This document shows, in pieces, positions 2,027 to 60,968 of a stretch of DNA of 64,000 bases (its first letter is position 1; each line of letters starts with the position of its first letter). Source of the DNA: an uncultured Gammaproteobacteria bacterium. Lineage in GTDB: Bacteria; Patescibacteriota; Microgenomatia; Levybacterales; UBA12049. The translations under genes were made by a program, and so were the position numbers. Where the stretch lies: contig CAYYSJ010000004.1 in the NCBI GenBank assembly GCA_964474445.1, forward strand, positions 64,185 to 128,184. Direction: 5' to 3'. The notes under the pieces were generated by a model. That model saw nothing but the letters and a program-made list of their open reading frames with translations. It was not told the origin of the DNA and made no database searches.

Positions 2027-2638
2027 ATGGGAAAAATCTGCCATAATGCAGGTATGAATACAATTGACATCTTAATCGAAGGCTACGCGAAAATGACAGA
2101 TAGTGGCTGGGAAGCTAGTGGAACAACAACTCTTATTACCACTGACTCTGGTCTAAAAATTATTGCTGACCCAGGGGCAAATAGGGACTTGTTGTTTGAG
2201 CGCTTAAAAGAACGGGGGCTAGGTTTAGAAGATATTGATTATGTTTTTCTTACGCACCATCATTTAGACCATGCAATGACTGTTGGACTTTTCCCACAGG
2301 CGAAAGTAGTTGATCAGGAAGCAATTTATGTGCAGGATAAAGCGCAGGAAGGTCCCAAAATGATCCCTGATACTGATATTACTATATTGCCAACTCCAGG
2401 CCATGAAGTTGGACATGGGATACTTGTTGTACCAACTGCCCAAGGGACAGTTGTGGTGGCAGGAGATAACTTCTGGTGGACAGCAGAGGAGGAGCAAAAG
2501 CTTGATATTAACAAGCAAGATGATTTTGCCGAAGATATGGAAATCTTGAAGGCAAGTCGAAAGCAAGTCCTAGATTTGGCAGATTGGGTGGTTCCAGGGC
2601 ATGGGAAAATATTTGAGAATAAACGAATAGACCGATAA
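2027..2638 (+). CDS. MBL-fold metallo-hydrolase
   Basis: HHHLDH metal-binding motif (LTHHHLDHAM), a distal His (PGHE) and a terminal HGK. Start may instead be the Met at 2054. Only 6 nt separate it from argS, so they are probably co-transcribed. Confidence 0.8.
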   Translation: MGKICHNAGMNTIDILIEGYAKMTDSGWEASGTTTLITTDSGLKIIADPGANRDLLFERLKERGLGLEDIDYVFLTHHHLDHAMTVGLFPQAKVVDQEAIYVQDKAQEGPKMIPDTDITILPTPGHEVGHGILVVPTAQGTVVVAGDNFWWTAEEEQKLDINKQDDFAEDMEILKASRKQVLDLADWVVPGHGKIFENKRIDR

Positions 2639-2644
2639 GAAAAT

Positions 2645-4375
2645 ATGTTGAAAGAAGAATTAACACAAGCAATACAGCAAGTAGTGAAGCAATTAACAGA
2701 AAAGGAGATAATTTTTACTCTTTCTATTCCGAAAGAAAATAAAAATGGAGACTGGACTTCGAATATTGCTTTCCAACTTAGCAAAGATTTAGGCACATCA
2801 CCATTAGAAGCAGCCAATAAAGTTGTAAGTCTCTTGGAAGAAACCGGAAAATTTTCGGGAATTGTAAAAGCAGAGGCTGTTGCTCCTGGCTTTATTAATT
2901 TTTACCTTACAAACACCGAATTAAGCAGATGCATGTCTATTCTGCTAAATGATCCAGAAAAGGTTGGTAGGACGACTAAAATGAAAAATAAAAAGATGAT
3001 GGTTGAATTTGCTCATCCAAATACGCATAAAGAATTGCATATTGGCCACATGCGTACTCTCACAACAGGAGAATCCCTTGCAAGACTTTTCCAGGCAAAT
3101 GGTGCAGAAGTGTTTCGTGCGAATTATCAAGGAGATATTGGTCCTCATGTGGCAAAGGCAATTCATGGTATAGAAAACATGATGGCAGAGCAACAGCTTT
3201 CCCTTGAGGATATAGAGAAGTGGAGTTTTGTTGAAAAAGCTCATTTCTTGGGACAAGGGTATGCGAGGGGAAGTAAAGACTATGAAGAAGGGGCAAAAGA
3301 GGAGATAGACGCACTTAATGTTGCTTTATACAAAAGGGATCCGAAATATCAGGATATCTATCAACGCACCAGAAAGTGGAGTTTGGACTATTATGATGAA
3401 TTTTACACAAGGTTTTATACGAAGTTCGATAAGTTGTTTTTTGAAGGTGACTTAGATGAAGAAGCTGTGAAGATAGTTGCAGACAACATCGGAAAAGTCT
3501 TCCGCAAAGATCCAGATGGGTCAGTCGTTTTTTCTGGAGAGCCGTATGGACTTCATACACGAGTCTTTATTACACAAAAAGGAACCCCTACTTATGAAGG
3601 AAAAGAAGTAGCATTGGGCTTTGCTGAATACAATGCATTTCCATTTGATTTAAAAATCCATGTTGTGGCAAGCGAGCAAACAGGGTACTTCAAGGTAGTT
3701 TTCAAGGCAATGGAGATGATTGATTCTAAGAAGTTTGAAGGTCACGAATACCACCTTCCAATGGGTATGGTGCAACTTGTGGGAAGGAAAATGAGCTCCC
3801 GAACAGGTGATGTTTTAACTGTTGACGAGCTTTTGAATAAGGTCAAAGAAGCTGCTTCTCAACAATTTAGGGAGGATAAGTTAAGCGAAGAAGAAAGAGA
3901 AACCGTGCTTGAGCAAGTCACTATTGGGGCAGTAAAATATTCTATTCTGAAAGGAGGAGTTACCCAGAATGCACTTTTTGATATTGAAAAGTCTGTTAGC
4001 TTGCAGGGTAACTCTGGGCCTTACGTGCAATATACTTATACAAGAACACAAAGTGTGTTAGGAAAAGCAGATAGCCTGGAAACTCAAGCGGCTGATAATT
4101 ACAGCCCAGAAAAGGAAGAGATAGAGATTTTAAGAAAACTCTACCATTTTCCAGAGGTGGTTGAGGAAGCAGCTATAACCTACAGTCCCAATGTAGTGAC
4201 AGAGTATTTGTTTGAATTGTCCCAGTTATTTAACAACTTCTACCAGAGATATCGCATTTTGAATGCTCCAACTGATACAGAAAAAAGTTTTAGATTAGGC
4301 TTGACACAAGCAACAGGCATGGTCATCAGACAAGGTCTCAACCTTCTTGGTATCCAAGCTCCTGCAAAGATGTAA
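2645..4375 (+). CDS. argS: arginine--tRNA ligase
   Basis: Class I HIGH motif (HIGHMRT), KMSKS-like KMSSR, DALR anticodon-binding C-terminus ending in M. Length 576 aa. Confidence 0.95.
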   Translation: MLKEELTQAIQQVVKQLTEKEIIFTLSIPKENKNGDWTSNIAFQLSKDLGTSPLEAANKVVSLLEETGKFSGIVKAEAVAPGFINFYLTNTELSRCMSILLNDPEKVGRTTKMKNKKMMVEFAHPNTHKELHIGHMRTLTTGESLARLFQANGAEVFRANYQGDIGPHVAKAIHGIENMMAEQQLSLEDIEKWSFVEKAHFLGQGYARGSKDYEEGAKEEIDALNVALYKRDPKYQDIYQRTRKWSLDYYDEFYTRFYTKFDKLFFEGDLDEEAVKIVADNIGKVFRKDPDGSVVFSGEPYGLHTRVFITQKGTPTYEGKEVALGFAEYNAFPFDLKIHVVASEQTGYFKVVFKAMEMIDSKKFEGHEYHLPMGMVQLVGRKMSSRTGDVLTVDELLNKVKEAASQQFREDKLSEEERETVLEQVTIGAVKYSILKGGVTQNALFDIEKSVSLQGNSGPYVQYTYTRTQSVLGKADSLETQAADNYSPEKEEIEILRKLYHFPEVVEEAAITYSPNVVTEYLFELSQLFNNFYQRYRILNAPTDTEKSFRLGLTQATGMVIRQGLNLLGIQAPAKM

Positions 4376-4440: not shown

Positions 4441-5775
4441 TTGAGCAAGGACTTTCTCCATCTTGAATCTTTGACAGAACCTGATATACTAAGTAATACT
4501 TTTATGCAGTATAAGCGTACAGTTTTACCAAACGGCCTCAGAATGATTACCGTCCCTATGCCTTCATTTGAAACAGCAACTGTGCTTGTCATGGTTGGGG
4601 CAGGAAGTAGATATGAGACTAAGCTTAACAATGGTATTTCTCATTTTTTAGAGCACATGGCGTTTAAAGGAACACAGAAAAGACCGAATGCCATGGCTAT
4701 TTCATCCTTAATTGATGGGATTGGGGGAGAATTCAATGCGTTTACCTCAAAAGAATACACAGGCTATTACATCAAAGCGCAAAGCAATCACATCGAGCTT
4801 TCTTTAGATTTACTTTCTGATATGCTTAACAACTCAGTTTTTGATGAAAAGGAAATAGAAAAAGAAAAGGGCGTGATTATTGAGGAAATTAATATGTATG
4901 AGGACACTCCTATGCGAAACCTTGGGGACGTCTATGAAAGAGTATTGTACGATGACACGCCTATGGGTTGGGATACTGCAGGAACAAAAGACGTTATTTC
5001 CAAAGTAACTCGAAATGATTTTGTTGAGTATATGAAATCTCTCTATAGTGCTGACAATATGACTGTTATTGTAGCTGGGGGGCTTGATAGTACCAAAGTT
5101 GAAGATATGGTGAAAAAATATTTTGGTGGTATGCCACAATTCCCAATATTGAAGGCATTACCTGTTACTGAAGATCAGAACGAGCCAAATTCTTATGTAA
5201 AAGAAAAAACAACAGAACAAGTTCATTTAGCAATTGGAGTGAGAACTGTTCCATTAGGACATCCTGATGAAGATGCATTGGAAGTATTAGCCAATATTTT
5301 GGGTGGAGGGATGAGTAGTCGCCTTTTCAGTGAAGTAAGAGAAAAAAGAGGCTTAGCATATTATGTACGCATGTCTTCTGATAACTACACTGATTGTGGG
5401 ACACTAGTTGCAACAGCTGGTGTTGATCCAAAACGAGCTCAAGATGCCGTAAGAGTGATTTTAGAAGAGCTTGGAAGAATTAAAGAACCTGGGAATGTTA
5501 CAGAAGAAGAACTGAAGCGTGCAAAAGAGTATATTAATGGTCATTTTGTGATGGATTTAGAAGATTCACGCTCAGTGGCTATCTATTTTGCTCATCAGGA
5601 AATTTTAGAAAATAGAATTTATACACCAGTTGAAAATATTGAAAAGATCAATAAGGTAAGTCTTGCTGATATTGAGCGAGTTGCACAGAAATATCTCGCA
5701 GAAAAGACTCTAAATTTCGCTGTGATTGGAAAATTTGATACCCAAAATGTAGAAAATCTCCTAAAATTAGCGTAA
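4441..5775 (+). CDS. M16 family (pitrilysin/insulinase-like) zinc peptidase
   Basis: Inverted zinc motif HFLEHMAFKGT (HxxEH). The LPNGLR N-terminal signature suggests the real start is the Met at 4504. Confidence 0.85.
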   Translation: MSKDFLHLESLTEPDILSNTFMQYKRTVLPNGLRMITVPMPSFETATVLVMVGAGSRYETKLNNGISHFLEHMAFKGTQKRPNAMAISSLIDGIGGEFNAFTSKEYTGYYIKAQSNHIELSLDLLSDMLNNSVFDEKEIEKEKGVIIEEINMYEDTPMRNLGDVYERVLYDDTPMGWDTAGTKDVISKVTRNDFVEYMKSLYSADNMTVIVAGGLDSTKVEDMVKKYFGGMPQFPILKALPVTEDQNEPNSYVKEKTTEQVHLAIGVRTVPLGHPDEDALEVLANILGGGMSSRLFSEVREKRGLAYYVRMSSDNYTDCGTLVATAGVDPKRAQDAVRVILEELGRIKEPGNVTEEELKRAKEYINGHFVMDLEDSRSVAIYFAHQEILENRIYTPVENIEKINKVSLADIERVAQKYLAEKTLNFAVIGKFDTQNVENLLKLA

Positions 5776-5869
5776 CTCCATAGTCATCTTTAGAAATCCT
5801 ATTGCAAAGACTATCTATTGAAGATACAATGGAGTAGTTATAAGCTAGTAGTCTTTAATAACTAAACAT

Positions 5870-6334
5870 ATGGAACAAACAGTTGTTTTGGTAAAACCGG
5901 ATGGTGTGCAGCGGGGACTTATTGGTGAAATCATCCACAGATTTGAACGAAAAGGACTTCACTTAGTTGCTCTCAAAATGGTGAATCTCTCGACAGAACT
6001 TCTTGAAGAGTGGTATGCACACCATAAAGATAAGCCTTTTTTCCCAGCACTTAAAGGATATATGCAGTCTTATCCGGTCGTTGCAATGGTATGGGAAGGA
6101 ATGGATGTTGCAGTAACAGTTCGTACTATGATTGGTATCACTAAGGCTCGTGATGCAGCTCCTGGTACAATTCGAGGTGACTTTGGCATGTCTCAACAAT
6201 ACAATTTAATTCATGCATCTGAATCAGCCGAAGCAGCACGAAAAGAAGTGGCTTTACTTTTCAATGAGAGTGATATTTTCCCCTGGCACAAGTTAGATAA
6301 ATCTCAAATCTACTCCGAAGAAGAATTAGCATAG
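5870..6334 (+). CDS. ndk: nucleoside diphosphate kinase
   Basis: VKPDGVQRGL N-terminus, NLIHASES active-site His region, ~150 aa. Confidence 0.95.
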   Translation: MEQTVVLVKPDGVQRGLIGEIIHRFERKGLHLVALKMVNLSTELLEEWYAHHKDKPFFPALKGYMQSYPVVAMVWEGMDVAVTVRTMIGITKARDAAPGTIRGDFGMSQQYNLIHASESAEAARKEVALLFNESDIFPWHKLDKSQIYSEEELA

Positions 6335-6345
6335 TTCTCCAAGAT

Positions 6346-6374
6346 TTGACAGAAACCTATTTTGATCCTATAAT
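6346..6374 (+). promoter_or_regulatory. perfect-consensus sigma70 promoter TTGACA-17-TATAAT, 8 nt upstream of the ATG (leaderless-type)
   Basis: TTGACA at 6346-6351, 17-nt spacer, TATAAT at 6369-6374, ATG at 6383. Confidence 0.55.
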
Positions 6375-6382
6375 ATCTCTAT

Positions 6383-7057
6383 ATGGTAATGAGATATGAG
6401 CTTTTGAGAGGTAGACCTCAATTTGCAACTCCTGACACGAGATATTGGGCTATGCCTGCAGATGAAAGATTAAGGGCGGTAATGAACCAAGTTCGAATAG
6501 ATATCCCACCCCACTTTAAGTTAGGAGACAGTGGTAAATTAAAAGGGAGAATAAAAGATTGGTTAGAATGGCCAGAAGCTTATAAGTTAGGAGAAGAAGA
6601 AACTAAGAGAAGACAACAACGCATTGCAGAAGAAGTTAGTGCTCTTTTGCCGCGAACTGACAGATTGGCATGGTTAGATCTGGAGAGTGATTACCCAAGT
6701 CTCACCATTGATGGCAATGTCCCTGCTAATATGCGAAAAGCTGATTTTATCTTATCATTCTTTGATGCTGGAAATCCTGGACTTTTAGCAAAGCTTACGT
6801 CACGCGATTTTGATGCATTTATGAATTGGGCTGCATCAGATAGACTTCCATATTGTTTAACTTCAGAGAATGAAATGGAAAGAGCTTATACTAATAAAAT
6901 TCCCTTGGGCCAAACAACTCACCAGTCAGCTGCTCGAGAAGAAGTTTACGACTATCTTCGTGAAGTTGGCTCGAGAACAGGTATAAGGAGAAGAACAGCA
7001 CGTTTTAATATGAAACAGTTAGAAAAACGATTATACCAAAAATATCCTCGGGGCTAA
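6383..7057 (+). CDS. hypothetical protein (224 aa, Arg-rich, no TM)
   Basis: Long clean ORF directly behind a consensus promoter. No motif recognised. Confidence 0.6.
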   Translation: MVMRYELLRGRPQFATPDTRYWAMPADERLRAVMNQVRIDIPPHFKLGDSGKLKGRIKDWLEWPEAYKLGEEETKRRQQRIAEEVSALLPRTDRLAWLDLESDYPSLTIDGNVPANMRKADFILSFFDAGNPGLLAKLTSRDFDAFMNWAASDRLPYCLTSENEMERAYTNKIPLGQTTHQSAAREEVYDYLREVGSRTGIRRRTARFNMKQLEKRLYQKYPRG

Positions 7058-16182: not shown

Positions 16183-17721
16183 TTATCTTCTTGTGTGAGT
16201 TGTTGCTCCTATAGCATCTCTTACAAACTTCATTGCCCAGCCATAGACATTTCTTTCTTCAAGAGTTTGAACCATTTGCTTTGTAATCTTTATCCGAGTC
16301 TCTTTTGGCATCGTCAGTGCCTTATGGATAGCCTCTGCCACTTCTTCTACATTATATGGATTCACAATGAGACTTGCGGTCAAATCGATAGCAGAGCCTG
16401 CAAATTGAGACAAAACAAGCACACCAGGGTTATCAGACAAAGATGCTGCAACAATAAATTCTTTGGAAACTAAATTCATTCCATCATCAAGAGGTGTTAC
16501 CAACCCAACCTGTGCTTTTCTATAAAGATTAAGAATTTCAGGGCGTGTATAAGTACCTGATACCAGATGAATAGGTCTCCAGCCGTCTTTTTCGTATTTC
16601 TCATTAATTTCTTTTGTAAGAGAATAGACATTTTTTTTCAGTTCTTTGTACGCAGGAATTTGTTCCCTTGATGGAGAAAGTACGCCAAGGTAGGAAACAT
16701 TCCCAATATACTCTGGGTGCTCCTGAAAGAACCGATCTAAGGCAAGAAGTCTTAAGCGCAACCCTTTTGTATAGTCAAGCCTATCTACTCCAAGGATGAC
16801 ACGATTCTGTTTAAAGAAGAGGTCAATATCAGATTGTCCAGAAGAGTTATCTTCCTTAGATTTTTCTTGAAGTCCTAGAAGACCCCGGACAATTGTTGTA
16901 AGGATAGTATCCGATTGTTGTGGTTGGAGAGTTGTCATAATGACGTCAGTATCAATACCCATAGGAAGACTTTTAACAGTTGTGACATGATTTTTGTAGT
17001 GGATACTTCTTGTTTCCAAGTCAACCCGTGCTTCAAATTCTCTTACAACCGTATTAATGAAATTTTGTGCTTGGTATCCTCTATGAAATGCAATGTAGTC
17101 ACACATAAGCATACTTTCAAGAAGTTCTTTTTTCTGAGGTAATATACGAAAGATTTCCCACGTTGGCCATGGTATATGCCAAAACATCCCAACAACTGCA
17201 CCTTTTGGTTTATTAAGGAATGCGGGAACAAGTGCTAGTTGGTAATCATTAATCCATACGACATCATTGCCGTGGAGGTAAGACTTAATAGACTCAGCAT
17301 ACGTTTTATTGACTCTTTTATATCCTTCATACCATGCAGAGTTAAACTCGGGCCGTTGAAATGCAATATGACAGAGGGGCCAGAGTGTTTGGTTGGAAAA
17401 TCCATAATAATAGTCAGAGAGATCTTCTTCAGAGAAAAAAAGACGTTTTAGAAGGTATTCATCAGGAGTTCCTGCATTAACAGCAATTTCATTACGGTTA
17501 TTTAGGACTTCTTTATCTGTTGCTGATTTTCCTCTTGCAATATAGATTGCATGAGATGCTCTGGCAATTGGTTCAAGGGCGACTCCAACCCCACCTGCGG
17601 GAATAGAGTAGGTAATTTCTCCTTTTGCTTTTTCATGAGCAATAGGTTCTGCATCAGCTGCAATAATAAGCTTTCGATCCAATTTAGAAAAAAAATCCTG
17701 CACGTCAAAAAAATTTGGCAT
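16183..17721 (-). CDS. otsA: alpha,alpha-trehalose-phosphate synthase-like GT20 glycosyltransferase
   Basis: LWPLCHIAF, GMFWHIPWP and GVDRLDYTKG motifs, length 512 aa. Confidence 0.9.
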   Translation of the reverse strand: MPNFFDVQDFFSKLDRKLIIAADAEPIAHEKAKGEITYSIPAGGVGVALEPIARASHAIYIARGKSATDKEVLNNRNEIAVNAGTPDEYLLKRLFFSEEDLSDYYYGFSNQTLWPLCHIAFQRPEFNSAWYEGYKRVNKTYAESIKSYLHGNDVVWINDYQLALVPAFLNKPKGAVVGMFWHIPWPTWEIFRILPQKKELLESMLMCDYIAFHRGYQAQNFINTVVREFEARVDLETRSIHYKNHVTTVKSLPMGIDTDVIMTTLQPQQSDTILTTIVRGLLGLQEKSKEDNSSGQSDIDLFFKQNRVILGVDRLDYTKGLRLRLLALDRFFQEHPEYIGNVSYLGVLSPSREQIPAYKELKKNVYSLTKEINEKYEKDGWRPIHLVSGTYTRPEILNLYRKAQVGLVTPLDDGMNLVSKEFIVAASLSDNPGVLVLSQFAGSAIDLTASLIVNPYNVEEVAEAIHKALTMPKETRIKITKQMVQTLEERNVYGWAMKFVRDAIGATTHTRR

Positions 17722-43564: not shown

Positions 43565-44614
43565 TTAGCCGGTAATTTTTCTGAGAAAGTGAATGTTTTG
43601 TACAACGAAGGCAAGGAAAAAAGAAATACCTGCAACGAAAGTAAAAAAGAGCGCATCAAACCACGCTTGTTGAAAGGCAGAATGTGTTGCAAAAAATATT
43701 TTTTTCCCCAGGATAGCCCATACGCTTTCCAAGACGATGACGTGGACAAAAAAAACAAAAAATGAAAGACGTGAAAGAAGTTTTATCACTCCCATGTGAA
43801 ACGTCTCTTTCTGTGAAACATAAAACAAGAGGAGGCTTATTAGTATAGTATAAAGTAGTATTGTTGGTCTCCATTGAGAGTAAAATGACAAATAATGCTT
43901 CGTTTGCAGATAGCCTGATAATCCTTCATATACGATATATCCTGCAAAAAAAAGAGCAGCAAGAGCAAGAAGATACTTCCGCTGTACAACAAATGTTGTG
44001 AGTCTTTTTTGATGATGCGATGCAACACTTCCCAAAAGAAACGGGTAGAAATTTAAGAGAGCAATAGATGCGGGATAAAAGAGTGAGGATGGATGAAAAG
44101 AATAATCATAAAAAAGAAGTACCAGTTGTATAAGACCGAGTAAAAGAAGAATAGGCAGATGAGAAATATGATGATAGTACTTGTGTAGTAAAGGGAAGAG
44201 CAAGTAGAAAATAAGGAGTGTAGGGATAAAATACAGTTGATAGGAAGCGCTTCCTGTTGCAAGAGCATAGAGGAAGTTCGATGAATGCTGTTGATACACA
44301 AAGAAAAAATAAATGCTGCTCCAGAATATGTAGGGAATAAGAACTCTACTCAGTCGTTTTTTTAGATAGGTAAAGTAGGTTGCATGGAAAGGATAGTTAA
44401 GCTCTAACACAAAGCCTGAAATCATGAAGAATAATGGGACGGCAAATCGTGCAGCTTGATTAAGAAAAAACGTAATAGGTTCATGAGCAAGATCAAATGA
44501 GGATGCTTCAAGAACTCTGCTTGTTGTGTGGATGCAGACGACTGCAAGAATGGAAATAATGCGTAAAATATCAACGCCTGGATGGTATATTTTCTGCTTC
44601 TCTACTAATTGCAT
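43565..44614 (-). CDS. acyltransferase family 3 (OatA/WecH-like) membrane protein
   Basis: ~10 TM. N-terminal DILRIISILAVVCIH motif. Confidence 0.85.
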   Translation of the reverse strand: MQLVEKQKIYHPGVDILRIISILAVVCIHTTSRVLEASSFDLAHEPITFFLNQAARFAVPLFFMISGFVLELNYPFHATYFTYLKKRLSRVLIPYIFWSSIYFFFVYQQHSSNFLYALATGSASYQLYFIPTLLIFYLLFPLLHKYYHHISHLPILLLLGLIQLVLLFYDYSFHPSSLFYPASIALLNFYPFLLGSVASHHQKRLTTFVVQRKYLLALAALFFAGYIVYEGLSGYLQTKHYLSFYSQWRPTILLYTILISLLLFYVSQKETFHMGVIKLLSRLSFFVFFVHVIVLESVWAILGKKIFFATHSAFQQAWFDALFFTFVAGISFFLAFVVQNIHFLRKITG

Positions 44615-44683
44615 GAGGGAAAGTGTAACAATTTCAAAAAAGAAAGGGAATAGTTACCATTATACTAGTATGGTATAGGTGGA

Positions 44684-45028
44684 TTAGGGTTCCCATTGGG
44701 AGTGGGTAAGATCAACACAATGTCTCTGAAACACTACTCCTTCTTCCAAAAGTTTCTTCTCTTTTGCATGTAGCCCTCCAAAAGCATATCCTGTCAGCTT
44801 GCCATTTGATGCAACAACACGGTGGCAGGGGATACTCTCAGGATGGGTATTTTTGCTCATGCACATTCCAACTGCTCGGCTTGCTTTTTTGTTTCCTGCA
44901 AGGAGTGCTATTTGCTGATACGTTGCAACTTTTCCTATAGGAATCTTTTTGACTATTGTATAGACTTGCTCAGAAAATAATGGGGACATAGCCTCACAAT
45001 ACACAATGTTATTTACATTTGCAAGCAA
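44684..45028 (-). CDS. methylated-DNA--protein-cysteine methyltransferase (MGMT/Ogt DNA-binding domain)
   Basis: Active-site IPCHRVV. 114 aa. Confidence 0.85.
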   Translation of the reverse strand: MLANVNNIVYCEAMSPLFSEQVYTIVKKIPIGKVATYQQIALLAGNKKASRAVGMCMSKNTHPESIPCHRVVASNGKLTGYAFGGLHAKEKKLLEEGVVFQRHCVDLTHSQWEP

Positions 45029-45164
45029 GAAATAATGAGCAATATATTTTCACTTCACAACAGTTCTATGTAGAAAACATTGCAGCTGGTATCTTTTTCA
45101 AAAGAGTATGTGTTGTAGGTATTGACAAAGATATACCAATAACATAACGTTAAAAAGAGGGGAT

Positions 45165-46349
45165 ATGGCAATACGTACTGTTTCTAAACTCAAGGTGGTA
45201 TCATCTTTGACAATAACACTGCTTTTGTTATCTCCTGTTGTTGCGACGAACGCGAAACTGTTTGCTCAACAGCCGACAGAAAATGATCAAATTCCTTCAG
45301 ATTTGTCATTAGACCTTAATTTGGCACAACAAAATCCAGCTCCTGATCGACAACAGATTGTTAAATCAGAAACAAAGCAAGTGGAAATTACAACAACCAC
45401 AGGGCAAACAATAACGGCGGTGCCACAAGATGTCATTGCCCCTCAAGTGAAAACAGAACCCAAGCATGATGCAGTGAATCCTGATCAAACAACATCAGAA
45501 CAAGTCGTTACAAAACCTGAGGAGATCAAGGTTGATGAAAGTGGGACGCCAGTTCCTACTGAAGTTCCAGCACAAACAGATCAAAATCAAGGATCAACAA
45601 ATAATGCTGATCATCAACAGACAAACCAACCAACAACCCAACAACAATCCAACCAACCAACAAATCAGCCAACAGGTGTTCAATCAGAAAACGGTACAAC
45701 AGGAGCACCAACCCAAACACAAAATCTTGTTCCAGGGACCGATGTTGCACAACCAGATGACAATGCTGCACCAACAGATAATTCTACAAATCCTAACCTT
45801 CCTGCTCCTACACAAGTAGATGAAATGCCGGTATCTCCATCTGTAACAGATCAACCTGTACCAAGCAGCAATGCCCAACCTACGGCGGGGAGCAATAATC
45901 AAAATACCAATAATACACCGTCATCTGTACCTCAGACTACCTCTGCTCCTCAAGATACCACGCAGCCTACAAGTACACCCGTACAGGATAATACTTCTCA
46001 ACCTCAAACTACACCTTCACAAGCTCCAGATAATTCAACAAATACGCAAGTGCAACCTACTTCAGCACAGCAACAACCCACTACTGCACCTGATAACTCA
46101 TCAAGTCCTCAATCTAGTTCTCAAACCACGACTCAACAATCTCAACCTTCGCAACAGTCTCAACCATCTGATAGTGGTAGCAATAATGCAAATCCAAGCT
46201 CTCCATCAGACAATTCAGGGAGTTCAGGAGGAGGGAGTACTCCTACTGATTCCTCAGTACAAGGAGCAGCTACCCAGCAAAATCCAGTTGTGTTATTCTT
46301 TCAGCATATAGAACAAAAATTTGTTAACTTACTCTTTAGCACAAAGTAA
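45165..46349 (+). CDS. secreted low-complexity (T/Q/P/S/N-rich) protein
   Basis: Signal peptide. Compositionally biased 394 aa. Ends TAA 3 nt before, and in frame with, the next ORF. Confidence 0.55.
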   Translation: MAIRTVSKLKVVSSLTITLLLLSPVVATNAKLFAQQPTENDQIPSDLSLDLNLAQQNPAPDRQQIVKSETKQVEITTTTGQTITAVPQDVIAPQVKTEPKHDAVNPDQTTSEQVVTKPEEIKVDESGTPVPTEVPAQTDQNQGSTNNADHQQTNQPTTQQQSNQPTNQPTGVQSENGTTGAPTQTQNLVPGTDVAQPDDNAAPTDNSTNPNLPAPTQVDEMPVSPSVTDQPVPSSNAQPTAGSNNQNTNNTPSSVPQTTSAPQDTTQPTSTPVQDNTSQPQTTPSQAPDNSTNTQVQPTSAQQQPTTAPDNSSSPQSSSQTTTQQSQPSQQSQPSDSGSNNANPSSPSDNSGSSGGGSTPTDSSVQGAATQQNPVVLFFQHIEQKFVNLLFSTK

Positions 46350-46352
46350 TCT

Positions 46353-47039
46353 ATGGATACAAAGAAAGCAGAACATAAAGTACACGAACATACCAAAGAA
46401 GTGCATGCCTCTGGTGAGCATATGCATGAGGAGCATCAAGAGAAACATAAGATGCTTCAAGAATTTTTGTGGGATAAAAGATTTATTATTCTTTTTATTC
46501 TTCTTGTTTTGCTTTTGGGTGGTTTGCTTGCGTACAAACAGTTTCATCCAGGCAAGCCTCAAGTACGAACAATTACCGTTAACAAACAAGTGTTGCAAAA
46601 ACGTTCGATGGATCTTGGGATAATTCAAAGAGGATTGACGGGAAAAGCAATAGACGTTAACACTGGAAAGATTATTAAAGCAGCACGAGTATTTTCTCCA
46701 AATGATACAACAGTCTATCTTGAGCTAGACTTTTACAGTGCTCCCAAAGGAACAGTGATTGATTATATTCGCTATAAGAATGGAAGATATGTTGACCACG
46801 GAGAGGTAACGCTCATTAAGGCAAATACAAAAAATATTCTGTTTAATTGGATTATTAATAACCTCCTTTCAAATTCTCACGATGGGAATTGGCGTGTTGC
46901 GACATACACTAATGGAGTCCTTTCAAAAAGAATTTCCTATGTCGTAACAAAAAATCAAGTTTCTTATGTCTACCCAGAAACACCAGTTCGTTCTACAGAT
47001 ACAGATTATTTATTAAGCGCTGCTTTGACGCAGCACTAA
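46353..47039 (+). CDS. membrane-anchored protein (His-rich cytoplasmic N-terminus, TM, ~150-aa outer domain); paralog of 63282..63851
   Basis: Shared block ...YIRY...G...T(Y/W)RV..YTNGV..K.ISY.V with 63282..63851. Confidence 0.6.
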   Translation: MDTKKAEHKVHEHTKEVHASGEHMHEEHQEKHKMLQEFLWDKRFIILFILLVLLLGGLLAYKQFHPGKPQVRTITVNKQVLQKRSMDLGIIQRGLTGKAIDVNTGKIIKAARVFSPNDTTVYLELDFYSAPKGTVIDYIRYKNGRYVDHGEVTLIKANTKNILFNWIINNLLSNSHDGNWRVATYTNGVLSKRISYVVTKNQVSYVYPETPVRSTDTDYLLSAALTQH

Positions 47040-47048
47040 CCATGATTC

Positions 47049-48005
47049 ATGCCAACAGAAACTACCATTCAAGGCTTGTCCTCATCAGAAGTGAGAGACA
47101 GCCAAAAGAAATTTGGATATAACGTTGATAAAACTCACGATTATACTACCCTAAAACTCATCTTCAATACACTTTTTTCAGTATTCAACATTGTTATGGT
47201 TGCTCTTATCATTATTCTTGTTCTTGTTGGAAAAGGATCAGAAGCAAAGTTCCTTGGAGTTGTGGCTGGTTTGAATACAGCAATAGCCTTAATACAAGAT
47301 ATACGGGCTCGCCTTATTGTGAAAAGATTGAGTAAGCTTTCTGAAAAAACAACAAAAGTTATACGAAATGGTGAGATAAAAGAAATTCCCATCCAAGAGT
47401 TGGTGATTGGTGACGTGATCCATTTAGCCTCAGGAGATAGGGTGCCGGTAGATGGGGAGGTATTCTCAACACAATATGCAGAATTTGATGAAAGTATTTT
47501 GACAGGTGAATCAAAATATATCGAAAAGAAAAAAGGAGAAGAGATTAAAGCTGGAAGCTTTTTGGCTGCAGGGAGTTGTAATTATACAATGACCAAATTC
47601 ACCAGAGATTCATACATCCAAACAATTACCAAACAGATTGCCAAAAAAGGCATTACAGAGTCTCCACTGCAATCGCAAATTAACCAAATTATTAAAGCGC
47701 TTACCTATATGACAATTTTCTTTATCGCACTGATCGTTGCAGAAGGACTTGTCCAGGAGAGTCAAAAAGAAGAGATTATCGTAAATGCAGCAACACTGGT
47801 AAGCTCTCTTGTTCCTCAAGGTTTGGTTCTTATTACAACAATTTCTTTTGCATATGGGGCAACAAAAATTGCAAAAAATCAGGCAATTGTCCAAAAGCTT
47901 TCGGCAATTGAGGCAATGGCAAATACAAAAGTTGTCTGTATGGACAAAACGGGTACACTCACTGAAAATCAGCTACAAGTAAAAGAAATAAAGGAGGTTA
48001 TATGA
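47049..48005 (+). CDS. cation-transporting P-type ATPase, N-terminal part (A-domain, TM1-4, phosphorylation site)
   Basis: Ends ...VVCMDKTGTLTENQLQV-KEIKEVI. VPQGL ion-site motif. Stop TGA overlaps the next ATG (ATGA). Confidence 0.85.
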   Translation: MPTETTIQGLSSSEVRDSQKKFGYNVDKTHDYTTLKLIFNTLFSVFNIVMVALIIILVLVGKGSEAKFLGVVAGLNTAIALIQDIRARLIVKRLSKLSEKTTKVIRNGEIKEIPIQELVIGDVIHLASGDRVPVDGEVFSTQYAEFDESILTGESKYIEKKKGEEIKAGSFLAAGSCNYTMTKFTRDSYIQTITKQIAKKGITESPLQSQINQIIKALTYMTIFFIALIVAEGLVQESQKEEIIVNAATLVSSLVPQGLVLITTISFAYGATKIAKNQAIVQKLSAIEAMANTKVVCMDKTGTLTENQLQVKEIKEVI

Positions 48006-49456
48006 GCGGTAAGGGACAACATGCAAAAGCATTATTAAAAACATTCTTACGTGACGTCACACAAAAGAATAAACTCGACGAAACGTTAGAAAACTATCTT
48101 AACAATATCCAACCTCTGGAAGATATGCATAAGGTAACAGAGATTCCTTTCTCATCAGAAAGAAAATACAGCGCATGTGTATATTATGAGAACATAACGC
48201 TTGTGTTGGGAGCTCCTGAAATGCTTCTTTCTGGAGAGAGTACCTATATGAAGATAATAAAGGAATATACAGAAGAGTCCTATCGTGTTGTTGTTTTTGG
48301 AATAATTGAAGGAAAGTTTGATGAGAAAAAAGAGAATGTGAGGAAAAGATTCAAACCACTATTGGTTATTGCACTTGATGATCCCATTCGAGAAGAAACA
48401 CCGTCAACGCTTGAAAAGCTTATCAAGGAACATATTGAGTATCGTATTATCTCAGGAGATTCACCTGATACTGTTGCCGCAATTGCAAAAAGGATTAATA
48501 AAGACTATCCTGCCAAGATTATTACTGGGACTGAGCTTGACGAGTTACAAGGGACAGCATTGGAAAATGCCATCTTGGAGCACACTATTTTTGCTCGCAT
48601 AAAGCCTCATCAAAAACAGCTTATTGTGAGAACACTGAAAAAAAACAAACTTTTTACCATTATGATAGGGGATGGAGTGAATGACGTGTTGGCTCTCAAA
48701 GAATCTGATTTGGGAGTAGCTATGAATGGGGGATCATCTATGGCCAAAGATGTAGCAGATGTTGTCTTGCTGAACAATTCGTTTTCTACGCTTCCAATGC
48801 TTCTTTATGAAGGGAGACGAATCATTACAAATATTCAGACAATTGCGAATATTTATCTCATAAAAAATGTTTCATCTATTGCTGCAATTCTTATGCTTGG
48901 ATTTATTGGATTACGATTTCCTTTTAATCCAAAACATGTGCAGCTTTCAAGTTTTCTGATTATCGGTATCCCATCGTTTCTTCTCGCATTTGAGAAACAC
49001 ACATTCTCAACAACCGATGAAGGTTTTATTAAGCGGTTATTGCTATTTTCAGGAATTGTTGGCTTTGGGAATGCAATCTTTTTTACGATATTGTATACAT
49101 ACTATGACGTTACCAGTCCTGTCATTTTCTATGCCCAAAGTATGTTATTGATAACAGTGATGTTTTTCGGCATTAATAACATTATTCTTATCTATCTCCA
49201 GCATTATTCATTAGAAGAAATTTTTAGGAGACAAATAGTTATTGGACTCCTCATACTGATTTTTGGGGCATTTGCCCTTTGTCTTTTGATACCTCCTCTT
49301 CGTGTGTTTTTTGATATACAAAGGGTGAGTATGTTTGACGTTCTTCTTGCTTTTTGTTTTTCCATAGTAGGATCACTCATTATCGCAGGAGTCCTTCAGC
49401 AGCAACATCTCTTGAAGTCTTTAGAGGCACCTGAAAAAGTTAAAAAGGAAGAATAA
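48002..49456 (+). CDS. cation-transporting P-type ATPase, C-terminal part (N/P domains + C-terminal TMs)
   Basis: MIGDGVNDVLALKESDLGVAM hinge motif. Preceded by AAGGAGGT SD. Confidence 0.85.
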   Translation: MSGKGQHAKALLKTFLRDVTQKNKLDETLENYLNNIQPLEDMHKVTEIPFSSERKYSACVYYENITLVLGAPEMLLSGESTYMKIIKEYTEESYRVVVFGIIEGKFDEKKENVRKRFKPLLVIALDDPIREETPSTLEKLIKEHIEYRIISGDSPDTVAAIAKRINKDYPAKIITGTELDELQGTALENAILEHTIFARIKPHQKQLIVRTLKKNKLFTIMIGDGVNDVLALKESDLGVAMNGGSSMAKDVADVVLLNNSFSTLPMLLYEGRRIITNIQTIANIYLIKNVSSIAAILMLGFIGLRFPFNPKHVQLSSFLIIGIPSFLLAFEKHTFSTTDEGFIKRLLLFSGIVGFGNAIFFTILYTYYDVTSPVIFYAQSMLLITVMFFGINNIILIYLQHYSLEEIFRRQIVIGLLILIFGAFALCLLIPPLRVFFDIQRVSMFDVLLAFCFSIVGSLIIAGVLQQQHLLKSLEAPEKVKKEE

Positions 49457-49465
49457 GCAATACTA

Positions 49466-50461
49466 TTATTGCATGTTTTTTCCGAATGTTTGTATATCCC
49501 ATCTGCCATCTACCATGACACGCGGCATTGCAAACAGTTTATCTTTTATCTGTATCTTGCCAGGTACTGTGGAAACTGCTCCTTTATAACCCGCTTCTTG
49601 CACGATTGTTATAATTTTTTGATTGTAGTCACCGTAGGGATAAGCAAACCAATTGATGGGGCTTTTGAGTTGTTTTTCTAAATCACGTTTACTTCCCGTA
49701 ATCTCATCTTGAGCAAGAATATTTGAAATCGCGGTAAGAAAGGGGTGGTGTTTGGTATGTGCACCAAACGTGATAAAGTGGCTTGCATACATAGTCTTTA
49801 TTTCATTCCACGTAAGATATACTCCGCTTCCAACAACATCAGTAATAATAAAGTCAATTGCCTGCATATTATTTTTCTTTAACAGCGGGAATGCATTATC
49901 ATAAAAGCTTTGATATCCATCGTCAAAAGTAATGACAACAGCTTTTTGAGGAAGTGTTTTCTTCCCATCAAGTGCATCTAAAATATCATCCAGAGTCACT
50001 GTTGTATATGCATGAGAGGAAAGATATTCTAACTGCTGTTGAAATTGGAACGGTGAGACAAACAGTGCTGCCCATATCGGATTGAACGGTAATGGGTTTA
50101 CTCGAAGATGGTGGTACATAAGGATAGGCACTTGCACTTGCTTCAAAGGAAGCGGAGGGGGAGTTGAGGGAGTAGGAGAGATGGGTGGAGTTTGAGATGC
50201 TGGTTTCTCTGTATACACGTCACCACCCTCTTTATAAATGTTAAGTCCCTCGAGTACCTTTGAGGTAGCAGGTCGGTAGGGAAAGGCTTCATGCGCTTTA
50301 CTGTAATATTCTTGTGCCTCAGGGATTCTTCCACTCAGCAGAGCTTTATTTCCCAGTCGAATATAATAACTACTTTGTTGAAATTTATATATTCCAAAAC
50401 CGGTAAGTCCCAATACGAGAAGTAAAAAAATGACAAGAAAAACTGTTAGCGATAACCTCAT
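49466..50461 (-). CDS. polysaccharide deacetylase (CE4), membrane-anchored with TPR-like N-region
   Basis: VITFDDGYQSFYDNAFPLL... NodB motifs. Confidence 0.8.
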   Translation of the reverse strand: MRLSLTVFLVIFLLLVLGLTGFGIYKFQQSSYYIRLGNKALLSGRIPEAQEYYSKAHEAFPYRPATSKVLEGLNIYKEGGDVYTEKPASQTPPISPTPSTPPPLPLKQVQVPILMYHHLRVNPLPFNPIWAALFVSPFQFQQQLEYLSSHAYTTVTLDDILDALDGKKTLPQKAVVITFDDGYQSFYDNAFPLLKKNNMQAIDFIITDVVGSGVYLTWNEIKTMYASHFITFGAHTKHHPFLTAISNILAQDEITGSKRDLEKQLKSPINWFAYPYGDYNQKIITIVQEAGYKGAVSTVPGKIQIKDKLFAMPRVMVDGRWDIQTFGKNMQ

Positions 50462-59561: not shown

Positions 59562-60968
59562 ATGCTGAGGGGTAACATTTCTTCAAAAAAGATTCTTTTA
59601 GACGCAAAGAAAATACTTACAGATAATCAATTTGTAACCCAATATAATAATAAAAAGTATAAAGGCATTTCTCCTTCAAGTGAATATTATTATCATGCAT
59701 GGTTTTGGGATAGTGTGTTTCATGCAATGGCACTAGTGCATAGCGATCCAACATTAGCATTAGAGAATATAAAATTTCTAACTGATTCTCAATGGGAGAA
59801 TGGCCATATTGGTCATATTATCTATCGTTTTGAAGAACTACCATATTTCCCCGGGAAGACATTTTGGCATACAGAGGGAAAATCAAAGAGTGGCATTATC
59901 TCTTCAGGCATTATCCAGCCTCCAATTCTTGCAATTGGGTTACGGTATGTCTATGAGCATTTACACGATGAAACGTTAAGAAAGCAGTTTACCACATCGC
60001 TGGTCCCTGCAGTAGAGAAATATCATATTTATCTCAAAAATACTCATGATAGAGAAAACTCTGGTCTTATAAGCATTTTCCATCCCTGGTCCTCAGGAAG
60101 TGATAATGCAATTATTTTTGATCGACAAATGCGCGCAATTGCTCTCACAGATATTCCCCAACAAGTCTTTGAAGAGGTGAGAGACAAGCGAGTGGATAAT
60201 AAGGTAGGGGATAATGAGACAAGGCCACTTGAGGAAGACTACTATCGATTTCTCTATCTTGTTCATCTTGGTAATAAATTGGGATGGGACTATGAAAAGA
60301 TTCCTGATCATTTTCCATTTGCTGTGAAAGACGTTTCCGTCAATGGGTTGTGGTGTTTTGCAAATGAAGCATTAGGGCAACTCCTTGTTTCAGTGAACAG
60401 AGAAAAAGATGCAGAAAAGTATTTTACGTGGACAAAACAAACAAGACACGCGCTTCAGGAATGTTGGGACCAACAAAAGGGTGGCTTTACCAATGTCGAT
60501 GTCGTCAATGGAGGATGGATACAAGAATATTCTGAAAGCTTTGCAAATTTTATGCCATTTCTAACAGGAAACATACCATCATCTCAGCTGGAGAAATTGC
60601 TTGCCAAACTTGAAGACCCTAACCAATATTGGGTGAAGTATCCTGTTCCATCTGTCCCAATCAATCATCCACAATTTGAGTTGAAACGGTATTGGCGGGG
60701 TCCAACATGGCCAGCTATTAACTATTTTATTGTTTTTGGCTTACAAAAAATTTTACAAAACACCTCAGATGTCTATACAAAACAACAAAAAGAACGTATT
60801 GAGAGGGTAAGACAAACTCTTATCAAAAAAACGATGCAGATGATAGAGAAAGAAGGATTTTATGAAAATTTTATTCCTGCAAAGCCAACAGATGGCAAAA
60901 GCGGCAATGGATTTGCAAATTTTAGTTGGACAGCGGCTGTCTACATATTGCTTCATTATTGCTCTTGA
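59562..60968 (+). CDS. (alpha/alpha)6-barrel glycoside hydrolase (GH63 / GDE_C / trehalase-like)
   Basis: YYYHAWFWDSVFHAMAL and downstream W/E-rich barrel motifs. Cytoplasmic. Confidence 0.6.
   Translation: MLRGNISSKKILLDAKKILTDNQFVTQYNNKKYKGISPSSEYYYHAWFWDSVFHAMALVHSDPTLALENIKFLTDSQWENGHIGHIIYRFEELPYFPGKTFWHTEGKSKSGIISSGIIQPPILAIGLRYVYEHLHDETLRKQFTTSLVPAVEKYHIYLKNTHDRENSGLISIFHPWSSGSDNAIIFDRQMRAIALTDIPQQVFEEVRDKRVDNKVGDNETRPLEEDYYRFLYLVHLGNKLGWDYEKIPDHFPFAVKDVSVNGLWCFANEALGQLLVSVNREKDAEKYFTWTKQTRHALQECWDQQKGGFTNVDVVNGGWIQEYSESFANFMPFLTGNIPSSQLEKLLAKLEDPNQYWVKYPVPSVPINHPQFELKRYWRGPTWPAINYFIVFGLQKILQNTSDVYTKQQKERIERVRQTLIKKTMQMIEKEGFYENFIPAKPTDGKSGNGFANFSWTAAVYILLHYCS

What the first reader, a model, noticed from the sequence alone, without database searches (positions are those of the whole stretch)
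47049..49456. P-type ATPase encoded as two translationally coupled ORFs split right after the DKTGTLT phosphorylation motif
ORF1 ends ...CMDKTGTLTENQLQVKEIKEVI with TGA overlapping the ATG of ORF2 (ATGA). A strong AAGGAGGT Shine-Dalgarno is embedded 3 nt upstream of that ATG. ORF2 carries the nucleotide-binding/hinge GDGVND domain and the C-terminal TMs.

The SD plus the ATGA overlap look like evolved coupling rather than a fresh frameshift. This is unusual, since P-type ATPases are almost always single polypeptides. Alternatively it is a frameshift pseudogene or a sequencing indel.
Basis: seen in the sequence. Interest (0 to 1): 0.55.

Follow-up and report, generated by a model that had tools for sequence, protein, structure and literature searches.

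The report
Naturally split two-gene P-type ATPase
An ion-pumping P-type ATPase, normally one protein chain, is encoded here as two overlapping genes cut just after its phosphorylation site, and the cut has been kept under strong selection across a whole clade of candidate-phyla-radiation (Patescibacteria) bacteria, so it is a real two-chain pump and not an error or a dead gene.

Summary
ORF1 (47049-48005, 318 aa) ends 13 residues after DKTGTLT. Its TGA overlaps the ATG of ORF2 (48002-49456, 484 aa) as ATGA, and AAGGAGGT lies 3 nt upstream.

- The same junction occurs in three independently sequenced and assembled runs.
- All 16 related loci (58-79% amino-acid identity) carry the same two-gene arrangement, cut at the same protein position.
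- The stop/start layouts differ and all three frame relationships occur, so a single indel or a programmed frameshift is excluded.
- About 57 database clusters (90% identity) are C-terminal halves only.
- Both halves are under strong purifying selection (dN/dS about 0.05-0.15, synonymous sites mostly saturated). All catalytic motifs are kept and the halves co-evolve (r = 0.88).
- The joined sequence models confidently as a canonical P-type ATPase, with the break in a loop.

ORF1 carries the A domain, TM1-4 and the phosphorylated Asp299. ORF2 carries the N domain, the rest of the P domain and TM5-10.

The closest unsplit relative is 47% identical. The family is CtpE-like (P6/FUPA23), but with PQGL instead of PEGL in M4.

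Two orphan genes specific to this clade always sit directly upstream. I found no paper describing a naturally split P-type ATPase. Assembly and activity of the two chains are inferred, not shown.

The parts
47049..48005 (+). ORF1, the N-terminal chain (318 aa). It holds the N-terminal segment, TM1-2, the A (actuator) domain with TGES, TM3-4 with the VPQGL ion-site motif, the first P-domain strand with the phosphorylated Asp299 (DKTGTLT), and one further beta-strand.
   Evidence: (aligns to LMCA1 residues 16-346).
47943..47963 (+). DKTGTLT phosphorylation motif (Asp299-Thr305 of ORF1).
   Evidence: Present in all 14 intact relatives.
47991..47998 (+). Shine-Dalgarno-like AAGGAGGT inside the ORF1 coding sequence (codons K-E-V), 3 nt before the ORF2 ATG.
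   Evidence: The surrounding RNA is unstructured (z = +1.06).
48002..48005 (+). ATGA stop/start overlap: the ORF2 ATG overlaps the ORF1 TGA.
   Evidence: Identical in three independent assemblies.
48002..49456 (+). ORF2, the C-terminal chain (484 aa). It holds the N (nucleotide-binding) domain with LGAPE, the remainder of the P domain (DPIRE, SGD, GDGVND at 48668-48685) and TM5-10.
46353..47039 (+). up2: an orphan gene specific to this clade, directly upstream. It has a variable (here His-rich) cytoplasmic tail, one TM helix and an extracytoplasmic beta-sandwich of about 120 aa. It is a candidate accessory subunit, judged from synteny only.
45165..46349 (+). up1: a second orphan gene specific to this clade, first in the conserved four-gene cluster. 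It has an N-terminal hydrophobic segment, a conserved domain of about 190 aa and, in this genome, a long Q/T/P/S-rich tail.

Best explanation
This is a genuine two-gene P-type ATPase that selection has maintained. An ancestral single gene of the CtpE-like (P6/FUPA23) lineage was split in the ancestor of a Patescibacteria clade.

The cut lies in a surface loop 13-17 residues after DKTGTLT. That is just after the beta-strand following the phosphorylation site and before the first helix of the nucleotide-binding domain.

ORF1 supplies TM1-4, the actuator domain and the phosphorylated Asp299. ORF2 supplies the nucleotide-binding domain, the rest of the phosphorylation (HAD) domain and TM5-10.

The two genes are co-transcribed and translationally coupled. 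ORF2's start overlaps ORF1's stop, in an unstructured stretch of mRNA. In this genome it also has a strong internal Shine-Dalgarno, which is rare at other gene starts here.

The two membrane proteins then assemble non-covalently into one pump that runs the usual E1/E2 cycle. ATP bound by ORF2 phosphorylates the Asp on ORF1.

Shown here: the split, its conservation, purifying selection on both halves, intact motifs, and a fold compatible with a full pump.

Inferred: co-translation, assembly, activity and the transported ion. The ion is probably a divalent cation by analogy with CtpE, but this is uncertain because M4 has PQGL rather than PEGL.
For: The junction is real.
- It is identical in three independent runs.
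- The exact ORF1 and ORF2 proteins are also on record from both NCBI and Logan assemblies.

The split is conserved.
- All 16 related loci have both halves adjacent.
- Junction layouts differ: ATGA overlaps, TAAnATG, 5-8-nt gaps, 10-16-nt overlaps.
- Frame relationships of -1, +1 and 0 all occur (L002 is in the same frame with a TAA stop), yet the protein break point is constant.
- About 57 clusters at 90% identity are C-terminal halves only.
- In an exhaustive search of 1.84 billion representatives, the ORF1 clade is represented by a 320-aa protein, followed by the unsplit P0010 at 50% identity.

Both halves are under selection.
- dN/dS is 0.07-0.15 for ORF1 and 0.045-0.09 for ORF2, with synonymous sites mostly saturated.
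- TGES, PQGL, DKTGTLT, GAPE, DPxR, SGD and GDGVND are present in all 14 intact pairs.
- Pairwise identities of ORF1 and ORF2 correlate at r = 0.88.

Nothing is missing.
- The linker length matches unsplit P0010.
- The joined sequence models at pLDDT 86.4 and pTM 0.80, with residues 317-325 as a loop between strand 310-316 and helix 326-336.
- The model superposes on SPCA1a and Na,K-ATPase E1 states with TM-scores of 0.80-0.83.

The split is specific to this clade.
- Among the other loci (about 30-40% identity), those that span the junction do so in a single HSP or in same-frame HSPs, so none of them shows the split.

Coupling signals.
- ORF2 starts are enriched for SD (7/17 against 6/102).
- The junction RNA is unstructured.

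Precedent.
- Fragments of artificially split SR Ca-ATPase reassemble functionally (cited in PMC3464245).
Against: - No expression, assembly or activity data exist. All of this comes from uncultured metagenome-derived genomes.
- The SD is absent from 10 of 17 junctions, so it is not the conserved coupling device. The enrichment test is not corrected for shared ancestry, and gene starts were called crudely.
- The structure was predicted on an artificially joined chain, so it cannot show that two separate chains associate.
- One relative (L034) carries a further disruption in ORF2, so decay does occur in the clade.
- My literature search covers open-access papers only.
Confidence: 0.82

Rival explanations
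1. A sequencing or assembly indel created an artificial frameshift in a gene that is really a single ORF.
For: A 1-nt change would fuse the frames, and an ATGA overlap looks like a -1 shift.
Against: The junction is identical in contigs from three independent sequencing runs, including a variant strain. There is no long homopolymer at the site. All 16 relatives are split at the same protein position with different nucleotide layouts and frames.
Confidence: 0.01
2. A frameshift pseudogene: a decaying P-type ATPase gene with no function.
For: One relative (L034) has an additional disruption that removes the GAPE region. Patescibacteria have reduced genomes, which by general knowledge makes gene loss common.
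Against: dN/dS is 0.045-0.15 in both halves over saturated synonymous divergence. All catalytic motifs are retained in 14 of 14 intact pairs. Every ORF2 has its own start codon placed at the ORF1 stop. About 57 distinct clusters keep the same architecture.
Confidence: 0.03
3. Recoding: a programmed ribosomal frameshift at the junction produces one full-length polypeptide. The model would be prfB, where an SD-like element 3 nt upstream stimulates a shift at a stop codon.
For: A strong internal SD lies 3 nt from a stop codon. This resembles the prfB +1 frameshift site (my own knowledge of prfB).
Against: ORF2 is in the -1 frame here, with no slippery heptamer and no downstream structure (z = +1.06). 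The +1 frame meets a TAA after three codons. Relatives show -1, +1 and 0 frame relationships and gaps of up to 8 nt, so no single recoding mechanism could be conserved. Every ORF2 has a start codon.
Confidence: 0.04
4. The two halves are both expressed but no longer form a pump. For example, ORF2 might act as a stand-alone membrane-anchored HAD phosphatase or ATP-binding protein, and ORF1 as something else.
For: Stand-alone HAD and 'soluble P-type ATPase-like' proteins exist (my own knowledge). Assembly has not been shown.
Against: ORF2 lacks the catalytic Asp nucleophile, which sits on ORF1. The A-domain TGES and the M4 and M6 ion-site residues stay conserved. The halves are always adjacent and co-evolve at r = 0.88. 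Together they are 784-819 aa long, and the joined sequence models as a full pump.
Confidence: 0.07

Closest known systems
CtpE-type P-type ATPases (family 23 of functionally uncharacterised P-type ATPases; 'P6 ATPases' of Palmgren 2023). M. smegmatis CtpE is a Ca2+ uptake pump (PMC5615198, PMC10654040).
   Same: The best full-length homologs (31-47% identity) are about 800-870 aa, and JGI names them 'cation-transporting ATPase E'. Both have 10 TM helices and a total length of about 800 aa. The M6 Asp of Ca2+ pumps is replaced by Ile (ORF2 I321 aligns with the SPCA1 Asp), which PMC10654040 describes for CtpE. SGD replaces TGD, as in the full-length homologs.
   Different: It is encoded as two genes and two chains. 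M4 has VPQGL instead of the VPEGL reported for CtpE, in all 14 intact pairs and in P0010. It sits in a four-gene cluster with two orphan genes that are absent next to the unsplit homologs sampled. No phylogeny including Mycobacterium CtpE was made here.
P2-type pumps with solved structures (SPCA1, SERCA, LMCA1, Na,K-ATPase).
   Same: The overall fold matches: Foldseek TM-scores of 0.77-0.83 to E1-nucleotide states. Sequence hits reach 2e-35 for ORF1 and 2e-29 for ORF2. The catalytic motifs are the same.
   Different: All of those are single catalytic chains. Identity is only 18-25%. Scores fall below every NCBIfam equivalog cut-off for P2A, P2B, P3A, P3B and P1B.
Artificially split SR Ca2+-ATPase (proteolytic fragments that stay assembled).
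   Same: It shows that a P-type ATPase can work as non-covalently associated fragments (cited in PMC3464245).
   Different: That cleavage is post-translational and done in vitro, on an already folded protein and at other sites. Here the chains are synthesised separately and must fold and insert independently.
KdpFABC and the pumps that carry beta-subunits (Na,K-ATPase beta, Cdc50).
   Same: These are multi-subunit P-type ATPases encoded in operons or with obligatory bitopic accessory proteins exposed on the outside (PMC10654040). up2 has a comparable bitopic topology with an external beta-sandwich.
   Different: In all of them the catalytic subunit itself is one chain. up1 and up2 have no detectable homology to KdpA, KdpC, KdpF, beta-subunits or Cdc50, and their role is untested.
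Naturally split membrane proteins produced by gene fission (for example split-Doa10, PMC3464245).
   Same: A gene fission yields two integral membrane fragments that presumably reassemble. The split is conserved across a clade.
   Different: It is a different protein family, and it is bacterial with translational coupling.

Membership tests
P-type ATPase superfamily (HAD-IC) | DKTGT phosphorylation motif with the catalytic Asp | tested here: met
   ORF1 D299KTGTLT, nt 47943-47963. Present in 14/14 relatives.
P-type ATPase superfamily (HAD-IC) | A-domain TGES dephosphorylation motif | tested here: met
   LTGES is present in ORF1. E1-E2_ATPase Pfam hit at 1.4e-43. Present in 14/14 relatives.
P-type ATPase superfamily (HAD-IC) | N-domain and P-domain motifs (KGAPE-like, DPPR-like, TGD-like, GDGxND) | tested here: met
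   ORF2 has LGAPE, DPIRE, SGD and GDGVND. These are invariant columns in A1 and present in 14/14 relatives. TIGR01494 scores 146.6 bits against a cut-off of 62.3.
P-type ATPase superfamily (HAD-IC) | Catalytic subunit is one polypeptide spanning A, P and N domains and the TM core | tested here: not met
   There are two ORFs with a stop/start overlap, and this is conserved in 16 loci. This is the feature that makes it a variant.
P-type ATPase superfamily (HAD-IC) | Overall fold: 10-TM core plus three cytoplasmic domains | tested here: met
   The AF2 model of the joined chains has pLDDT 86.4 and pTM 0.80. TM-scores are 0.80-0.83 to SPCA1a and Na,K-ATPase. The caveat is that the chains were joined artificially.
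CtpE / P6 (FUPA23) family | Groups with Mycobacterium CtpE in a phylogeny | not tested
   The only evidence is indirect. Full-length homologs at 31-47% identity are named 'cation-transporting ATPase E' by JGI. All NCBIfam equivalogs for other subfamilies score below cut-off.
CtpE / P6 (FUPA23) family | VPEGL motif in TM4 (PMC5615198) | tested here: not met
   It is VPQGL in the window, in all 14 intact relatives and in P0010, P0058 and P0117. P0093 has IPEGL.
CtpE / P6 (FUPA23) family | The TM6 Asp of Ca2+ efflux pumps is replaced by Ile (PMC10654040) | tested here: met
   In the phmmer alignment to SPCA1, query 'fliig' aligns with 'iimdG', so the Asp aligns with ORF2 I321.
Programmed ribosomal frameshift genes (prfB-like or dnaX-like) | Conserved shift site and frame relationship yielding one product | tested here: not met
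   Frame relationships of -1, +1 and 0, and gaps of up to 8 nt, occur among relatives. There is no slippery heptamer and no downstream structure.
Pseudogene | Relaxed selection and motif decay | tested here: not met
   dN/dS is 0.045-0.15 and the motifs are intact. L034 alone shows an extra lesion.
Translationally coupled operon genes | Stop/start overlap or near-abutment, with the downstream start inside or next to the upstream ORF | tested here: met
   The layouts range from a 16-nt overlap to an 8-nt gap in 17/17 loci. Actual coupling cannot be tested with these tools.

The most novel reading that the evidence does not exclude
The split pump may be the core of a four-component machine specific to this clade: up1, up2, ORF1 and ORF2. 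The two orphan membrane or extracytoplasmic proteins would be obligatory subunits. In function they would be analogous to KdpC or to beta/Cdc50 subunits, though not homologous to them. The fission would let the cell assemble or regulate the actuator/phospho-acceptor chain and the kinase/TM5-10 chain separately. That would be a new architectural class of P-type ATPase confined to Patescibacteria.
Probability: 0.25. Interest if true: 0.7.

Novelty: new variant of a known kind. Interest (0 to 1): 0.55.

Why it matters
The catalytic subunit of every characterised P-type ATPase is a single chain. The textbook mechanism relies on tightly coupled movements of the A, P and N domains and the membrane helices.

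A split that selection has kept in place puts the phosphorylated Asp on one chain and the ATP-binding domain plus the rest of the active site on the other. This shows that covalent continuity at this point is dispensable in vivo.

It also marks a structurally tolerated cut site. That site could be used for segmental isotope or fluorophore labelling, split-protein engineering, and studies of how the two halves insert and find each other.

It adds a clear case of membrane-protein gene fission in genome-reduced Patescibacteria. It also flags two orphan proteins as candidate new pump subunits.

For annotation, these gene pairs should not be called pseudogenes or 'partial' ATPases.

Tried and rejected
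- TGA reassignment (genetic codes 4 or 25) is rejected. Read-through meets a TAA after 11 codons, and ORF2 is in another frame.
- Programmed frameshifting is rejected: frame relationships vary, there is no slippery site and no downstream structure.
- Promoter and terminator scans of 44600-49800 gave counts equal to shuffled controls, so they are uninformative.
- Rfam and tRNA scans of the window found only two tRNAs at about 11.2 kb. There is no rRNA to check the anti-SD sequence.
- The listing of cluster members returned no names or taxa for the clade.
- The record titles of L001-L003 say 'uncultured Gammaproteobacteria'. I regard these as unreliable submitter labels. The ArgRS in the window has its best named hits in Patescibacteria, Levybacteria, Shapirobacteria and Paceibacterota at 50-58%, and one ORF2 homolog is labelled Patescibacteria.
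- The DNA for the closest unsplit relative, P0010, could not be retrieved, so its gene neighbourhood is unknown.
- Foldseek of up2 gave only weak, generic beta-sandwich matches to UNC119 and NPC2, with TM-scores of 0.2-0.4. No function is assigned.
- Four literature searches found no description of a naturally split P-type ATPase. This covers open-access papers and bioRxiv only, so it is not proof of absence.
- In one search no ORF1-only halves were listed even though they exist. I cannot explain this ranking.
Full report
**1. The observation.**
The window carries two same-strand ORFs. ORF1 is 47049..48005 (318 aa) and ORF2 is 48002..49456 (484 aa).
- ORF1 ends ...VVCMDKTGTLTENQLQVKEIKEVI, and its TGA (48003-48005) overlaps the ATG of ORF2 (48002-48004).
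- AAGGAGGT lies at 47991-47998, 3 nt before that ATG.
- ORF2 is in the -1 frame. Reading through the TGA runs into a TAA 11 codons later, so stop-codon reassignment is not the explanation.
- ORF1 matches E1-E2_ATPase (1.4e-43) and Cation_ATPase_N. ORF2 matches the HAD hydrolase, Cation_ATPase and Cation_ATPase_C families.
- Both halves pass only the generic P-type ATPase model TIGR01494. They score below the cut-offs of all subfamily equivalogs.
- Hydropathy and the structural model place TM1-4 in ORF1 and six TM helices in ORF2.

**2. Not an artefact.**
- The exact ORF1 and ORF2 proteins are on record from both NCBI and Logan assemblies.
- Contigs assembled independently from three sequencing runs (ERR3317248, SRR12266073, SRR31070047) carry the same 318-aa and 484-aa pair with the 4-nt overlap.
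- A 121-nt alignment across the junction is identical through the stop/start overlap. The ERR3317248 strain differs only further downstream.

**3. The split is old and conserved.**
I searched with the two halves joined.
- It returned about 57 clusters (90% identity level) of 466-499-aa proteins that cover only the C-terminal 57-60% of the query, at 57-99% identity.
- It returned one unsplit relative, P0010 (832 aa, 47% identity, 96% coverage).
- Below that came thousands of unsplit proteins of about 800-870 aa at roughly 31-40% identity.

I retrieved 16 loci for clade members from three sources: species-representative genomes (L001-L003), metagenome contigs (L029-L034) and exact-protein look-ups (L109-L115).
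- In every one, an ORF1 half (315-332 aa) lies directly upstream of an ORF2 half.
- The protein break point is constant. ORF1 ends 13-17 residues after DKTGTLT, and ORF2 begins 4-12 residues before the conserved LLKTFL helix.

The nucleotide layout of the junction, however, varies:
- ATGA overlaps: window, L003, L030, L033, L114.
- TAAnATG: L029, L031, L032, L113.
- Gaps of 5-8 nt: L001, L002, L109.
- Overlaps of 10-16 nt: L110, L111, L112 (GTG start), L115.

The frame relationship is -1, +1 or 0. L002 has both halves in one frame, separated by TAA plus 6 nt. A single indel, or any one recoding mechanism, cannot produce this pattern. A long-lived pair of genes that keeps re-optimising its junction can.

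Among the other fetched loci (about 30-40% identity), 90 cross the junction in a single HSP and four more do so in separate same-frame HSPs. None of those that span it shows the split.

An exhaustive HMMER search of 1.84 billion cluster representatives with ORF1 found the clade represented by a 320-aa protein (72% identity). P0010 followed at 50%, then a drop to 39% or less.

**4. Selection.**
- Nei-Gojobori estimates give dN/dS of 0.07-0.15 for ORF1 and 0.045-0.09 for ORF2.
- The one unsaturated pair, L032/L113, has dS = 0.32 and dN/dS = 0.09.
- In most pairs synonymous sites are saturated (median pS 0.76-0.80), so the split predates deep divergence within the clade.
- TGES, PQGL, DKTGTLT, GAPE, DPxR, SGD and GDGVND are present in all 14 intact pairs.
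- Pairwise identities of the two halves correlate at r = 0.88, as expected for two parts of one machine inherited together.
- One locus, L034, has an additional lesion that removes the GAPE region. It is either a pseudogene or a misassembly.

**5. Where the cut falls.**
- Against unsplit P0010 nothing is missing. P0010 has 22 residues between DKTGTLT and LLSTF, and the window has 13 + 10.
- I predicted the joined 802-aa sequence with a 56-sequence alignment. It gave mean pLDDT 86.4 and pTM 0.80.
- The break (residues 318/319) lies in a loop (317-325) between strand 310-316 and helix 326-336.
- The model superposes on full-length pumps in E1-nucleotide states: SPCA1a at TM-score 0.80 and Na,K-ATPase at 0.82-0.83.
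- From my own knowledge of the SERCA domain boundaries (Toyoshima et al. 2000: P domain 330-359 and 605-737, N domain 360-604), the strand after DKTGTLT belongs to the N-domain sheet. ORF1 would therefore donate the first N-domain strand to ORF2, which would help hold the chains together. I could not check this on coordinates, so it is inference.

The division of labour follows. ORF1 has the A domain, TM1-4 and the phospho-acceptor Asp299. ORF2 has the ATP-binding N domain, the remaining HAD-fold active-site motifs and TM5-10. Neither half could turn over alone.

**6. Expression logic.**
- The stop and start abut in all 17 loci, from a 16-nt overlap to an 8-nt gap. This is the classical arrangement for translational coupling.
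Only 5 of 55 crudely called starts in the window have an SD match of 5 nt or more, and this is the only 8-mer.
- It uses the minority codons AAG (28%) and GAG (33%).
- Across the clade, ORF2 starts carry an SD of 5 nt or more in 7 of 17 loci, against 6 of 102 other starts (Fisher p = 3.6e-4, not corrected for phylogeny).
- The SD is therefore a reinforcement that recurs in some lineages, not the defining feature.
- The RNA around the junction is less structured than shuffled controls (z = +1.06). This fits an accessible start site and argues against a frameshift-stimulating structure.
- Promoter and terminator scans were uninformative.

**7. Context.**
Two genes with no Pfam hits precede the pair in every clade locus. 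In the window they are up1 (45165-46349) and up2 (46353-47039).
- They are absent from all the unsplit loci I sampled.
- up2 has 97 homolog clusters, all 129-241 aa and unannotated. Many of them have a longest contig of the same length as that of an ORF2 half (for example 60795, 262185 and 86754 bp).
- up2 models as a disordered tail (His-rich in the window), one TM helix and a beta-sandwich. It has only weak, generic structural neighbours.
- Their constant linkage makes them candidate accessory subunits, but that rests on synteny alone.

On the organism: the ArgRS in the window has its best named hits in the Patescibacteria group, Levybacteria, Shapirobacteria and Paceibacterota. One ORF2 homolog is labelled Patescibacteria. 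The organism is therefore a CPR/Patescibacteria bacterium, and I did not resolve the class.

**8. Comparison with known families.**
- The nearest full-length relatives are named 'cation-transporting ATPase E' by JGI.
- CtpE is the founding member of uncharacterised family 23 and a Ca2+ uptake pump in M. smegmatis (PMC5615198).
- Palmgren's review proposes naming the family P6 (PMC10654040). It notes PEGL in TM4 and Ile in place of the TM6 Asp.
- The window protein has the Ile (ORF2 I321 aligns with the SPCA1 Asp). It has VPQGL rather than VPEGL in M4, as do P0010 and several unsplit homologs.
- I therefore call it CtpE-like. Full membership is not established, because I built no phylogeny and one motif is not met. 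The ion specificity is uncertain.
- Neither review nor any of four full-text searches mentions a naturally split P-type ATPase.
- The nearest precedent is the artificially split SR Ca-ATPase, whose fragments reassemble (cited in PMC3464245).
- Multi-subunit P-type pumps (KdpFABC, and the beta- and Cdc50-containing pumps) all keep the catalytic chain intact.

**9. Verdict.**
- It is a new structural variant of a known kind of enzyme: a P-type ATPase catalytic core made of two chains and translationally coupled. It is conserved across a Patescibacteria clade and embedded in a four-gene cluster specific to that clade.
- Assembly, activity and substrate remain to be shown.
- Interest is moderate to good. 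Specialists would find a naturally bisected catalytic subunit notable and experimentally useful.
- It is tempered by two points. Gene fission as such is a known process, and proteolytic work already suggested that chain continuity is not essential.

Noticed in passing
window 45165-46349 and 46353-47039 (+): Two orphan genes (up1, up2) with no Pfam hits always sit directly upstream of the split ATPase in clade loci, and never next to the unsplit homologs sampled. up2 is a bitopic protein with an external beta-sandwich. In the window its cytoplasmic tail is His-rich (HKVHEHTKEVHASGEHMHEEHQEKHK), which may hint at metal binding. up1 here carries a Q/T/P/S/N-rich low-complexity tail of about 150 aa.
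   Followed up: partly
L111 5474-6705: A second up1/up2-like gene pair lies downstream of ORF2 in this relative (tblastn hits at 5585-5806 and 6298-6660).
   Followed up: no
L034 about 2083-3356: In this relative ORF2 is broken a second time. Residues of about 62-105, including the GAPE motif, are missing, and the frame changes near 2256. It is either a pseudogene or a misassembly.
   Followed up: partly
L116 320-1300 and 1333-2469: In a distant lineage (about 34% identity, JGI 3300025327) a P-type ATPase ORF (P0320, 326 aa) also ends 15 residues after DKTGTLT. A second ORF starts 33 nt later, and the start of the N domain looks shortened. This could be an independent break at the same site or a pseudogene.
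   Followed up: partly
window, whole: SD motifs are rare at gene starts (5 of 55 crudely called starts). Even so, AGGAGG is twice as frequent as expected across the window (49 against 24), mostly inside coding regions.
   Followed up: partly
L109 5460-6488, L111 555-1607, L113 5505-6488, L114 5415-6431: A dCache_1-domain membrane protein is frequently adjacent to the four-gene cluster in relatives. In the window the neighbouring gene is instead a polysaccharide deacetylase (49466-50461, minus strand).
   Followed up: no
window 16183-17721 (-) and 59562-60968 (+): There is a trehalose-6-phosphate synthase-like gene (OtsA model 3.9e-122, below cut-off) and a glucosylglycerate hydrolase-like gene. 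Such compatible-solute genes are, as far as I know, unusual for a Patescibacteria genome.
   Followed up: no
one search hit list: The search with the joined query listed about 57 C-terminal halves but no ORF1-only halves. Those exist in the same database and should have scored about 400-500 bits. I have no explanation for this behaviour of the candidate ranking.
   Followed up: no
L001-L003 record titles: The species-representative MAGs that carry the split pump are titled 'uncultured Gammaproteobacteria bacterium'. This conflicts with the Patescibacteria affinities of the window's ArgRS and of one ORF2 homolog, so the submitter labels are probably wrong.
   Followed up: partly
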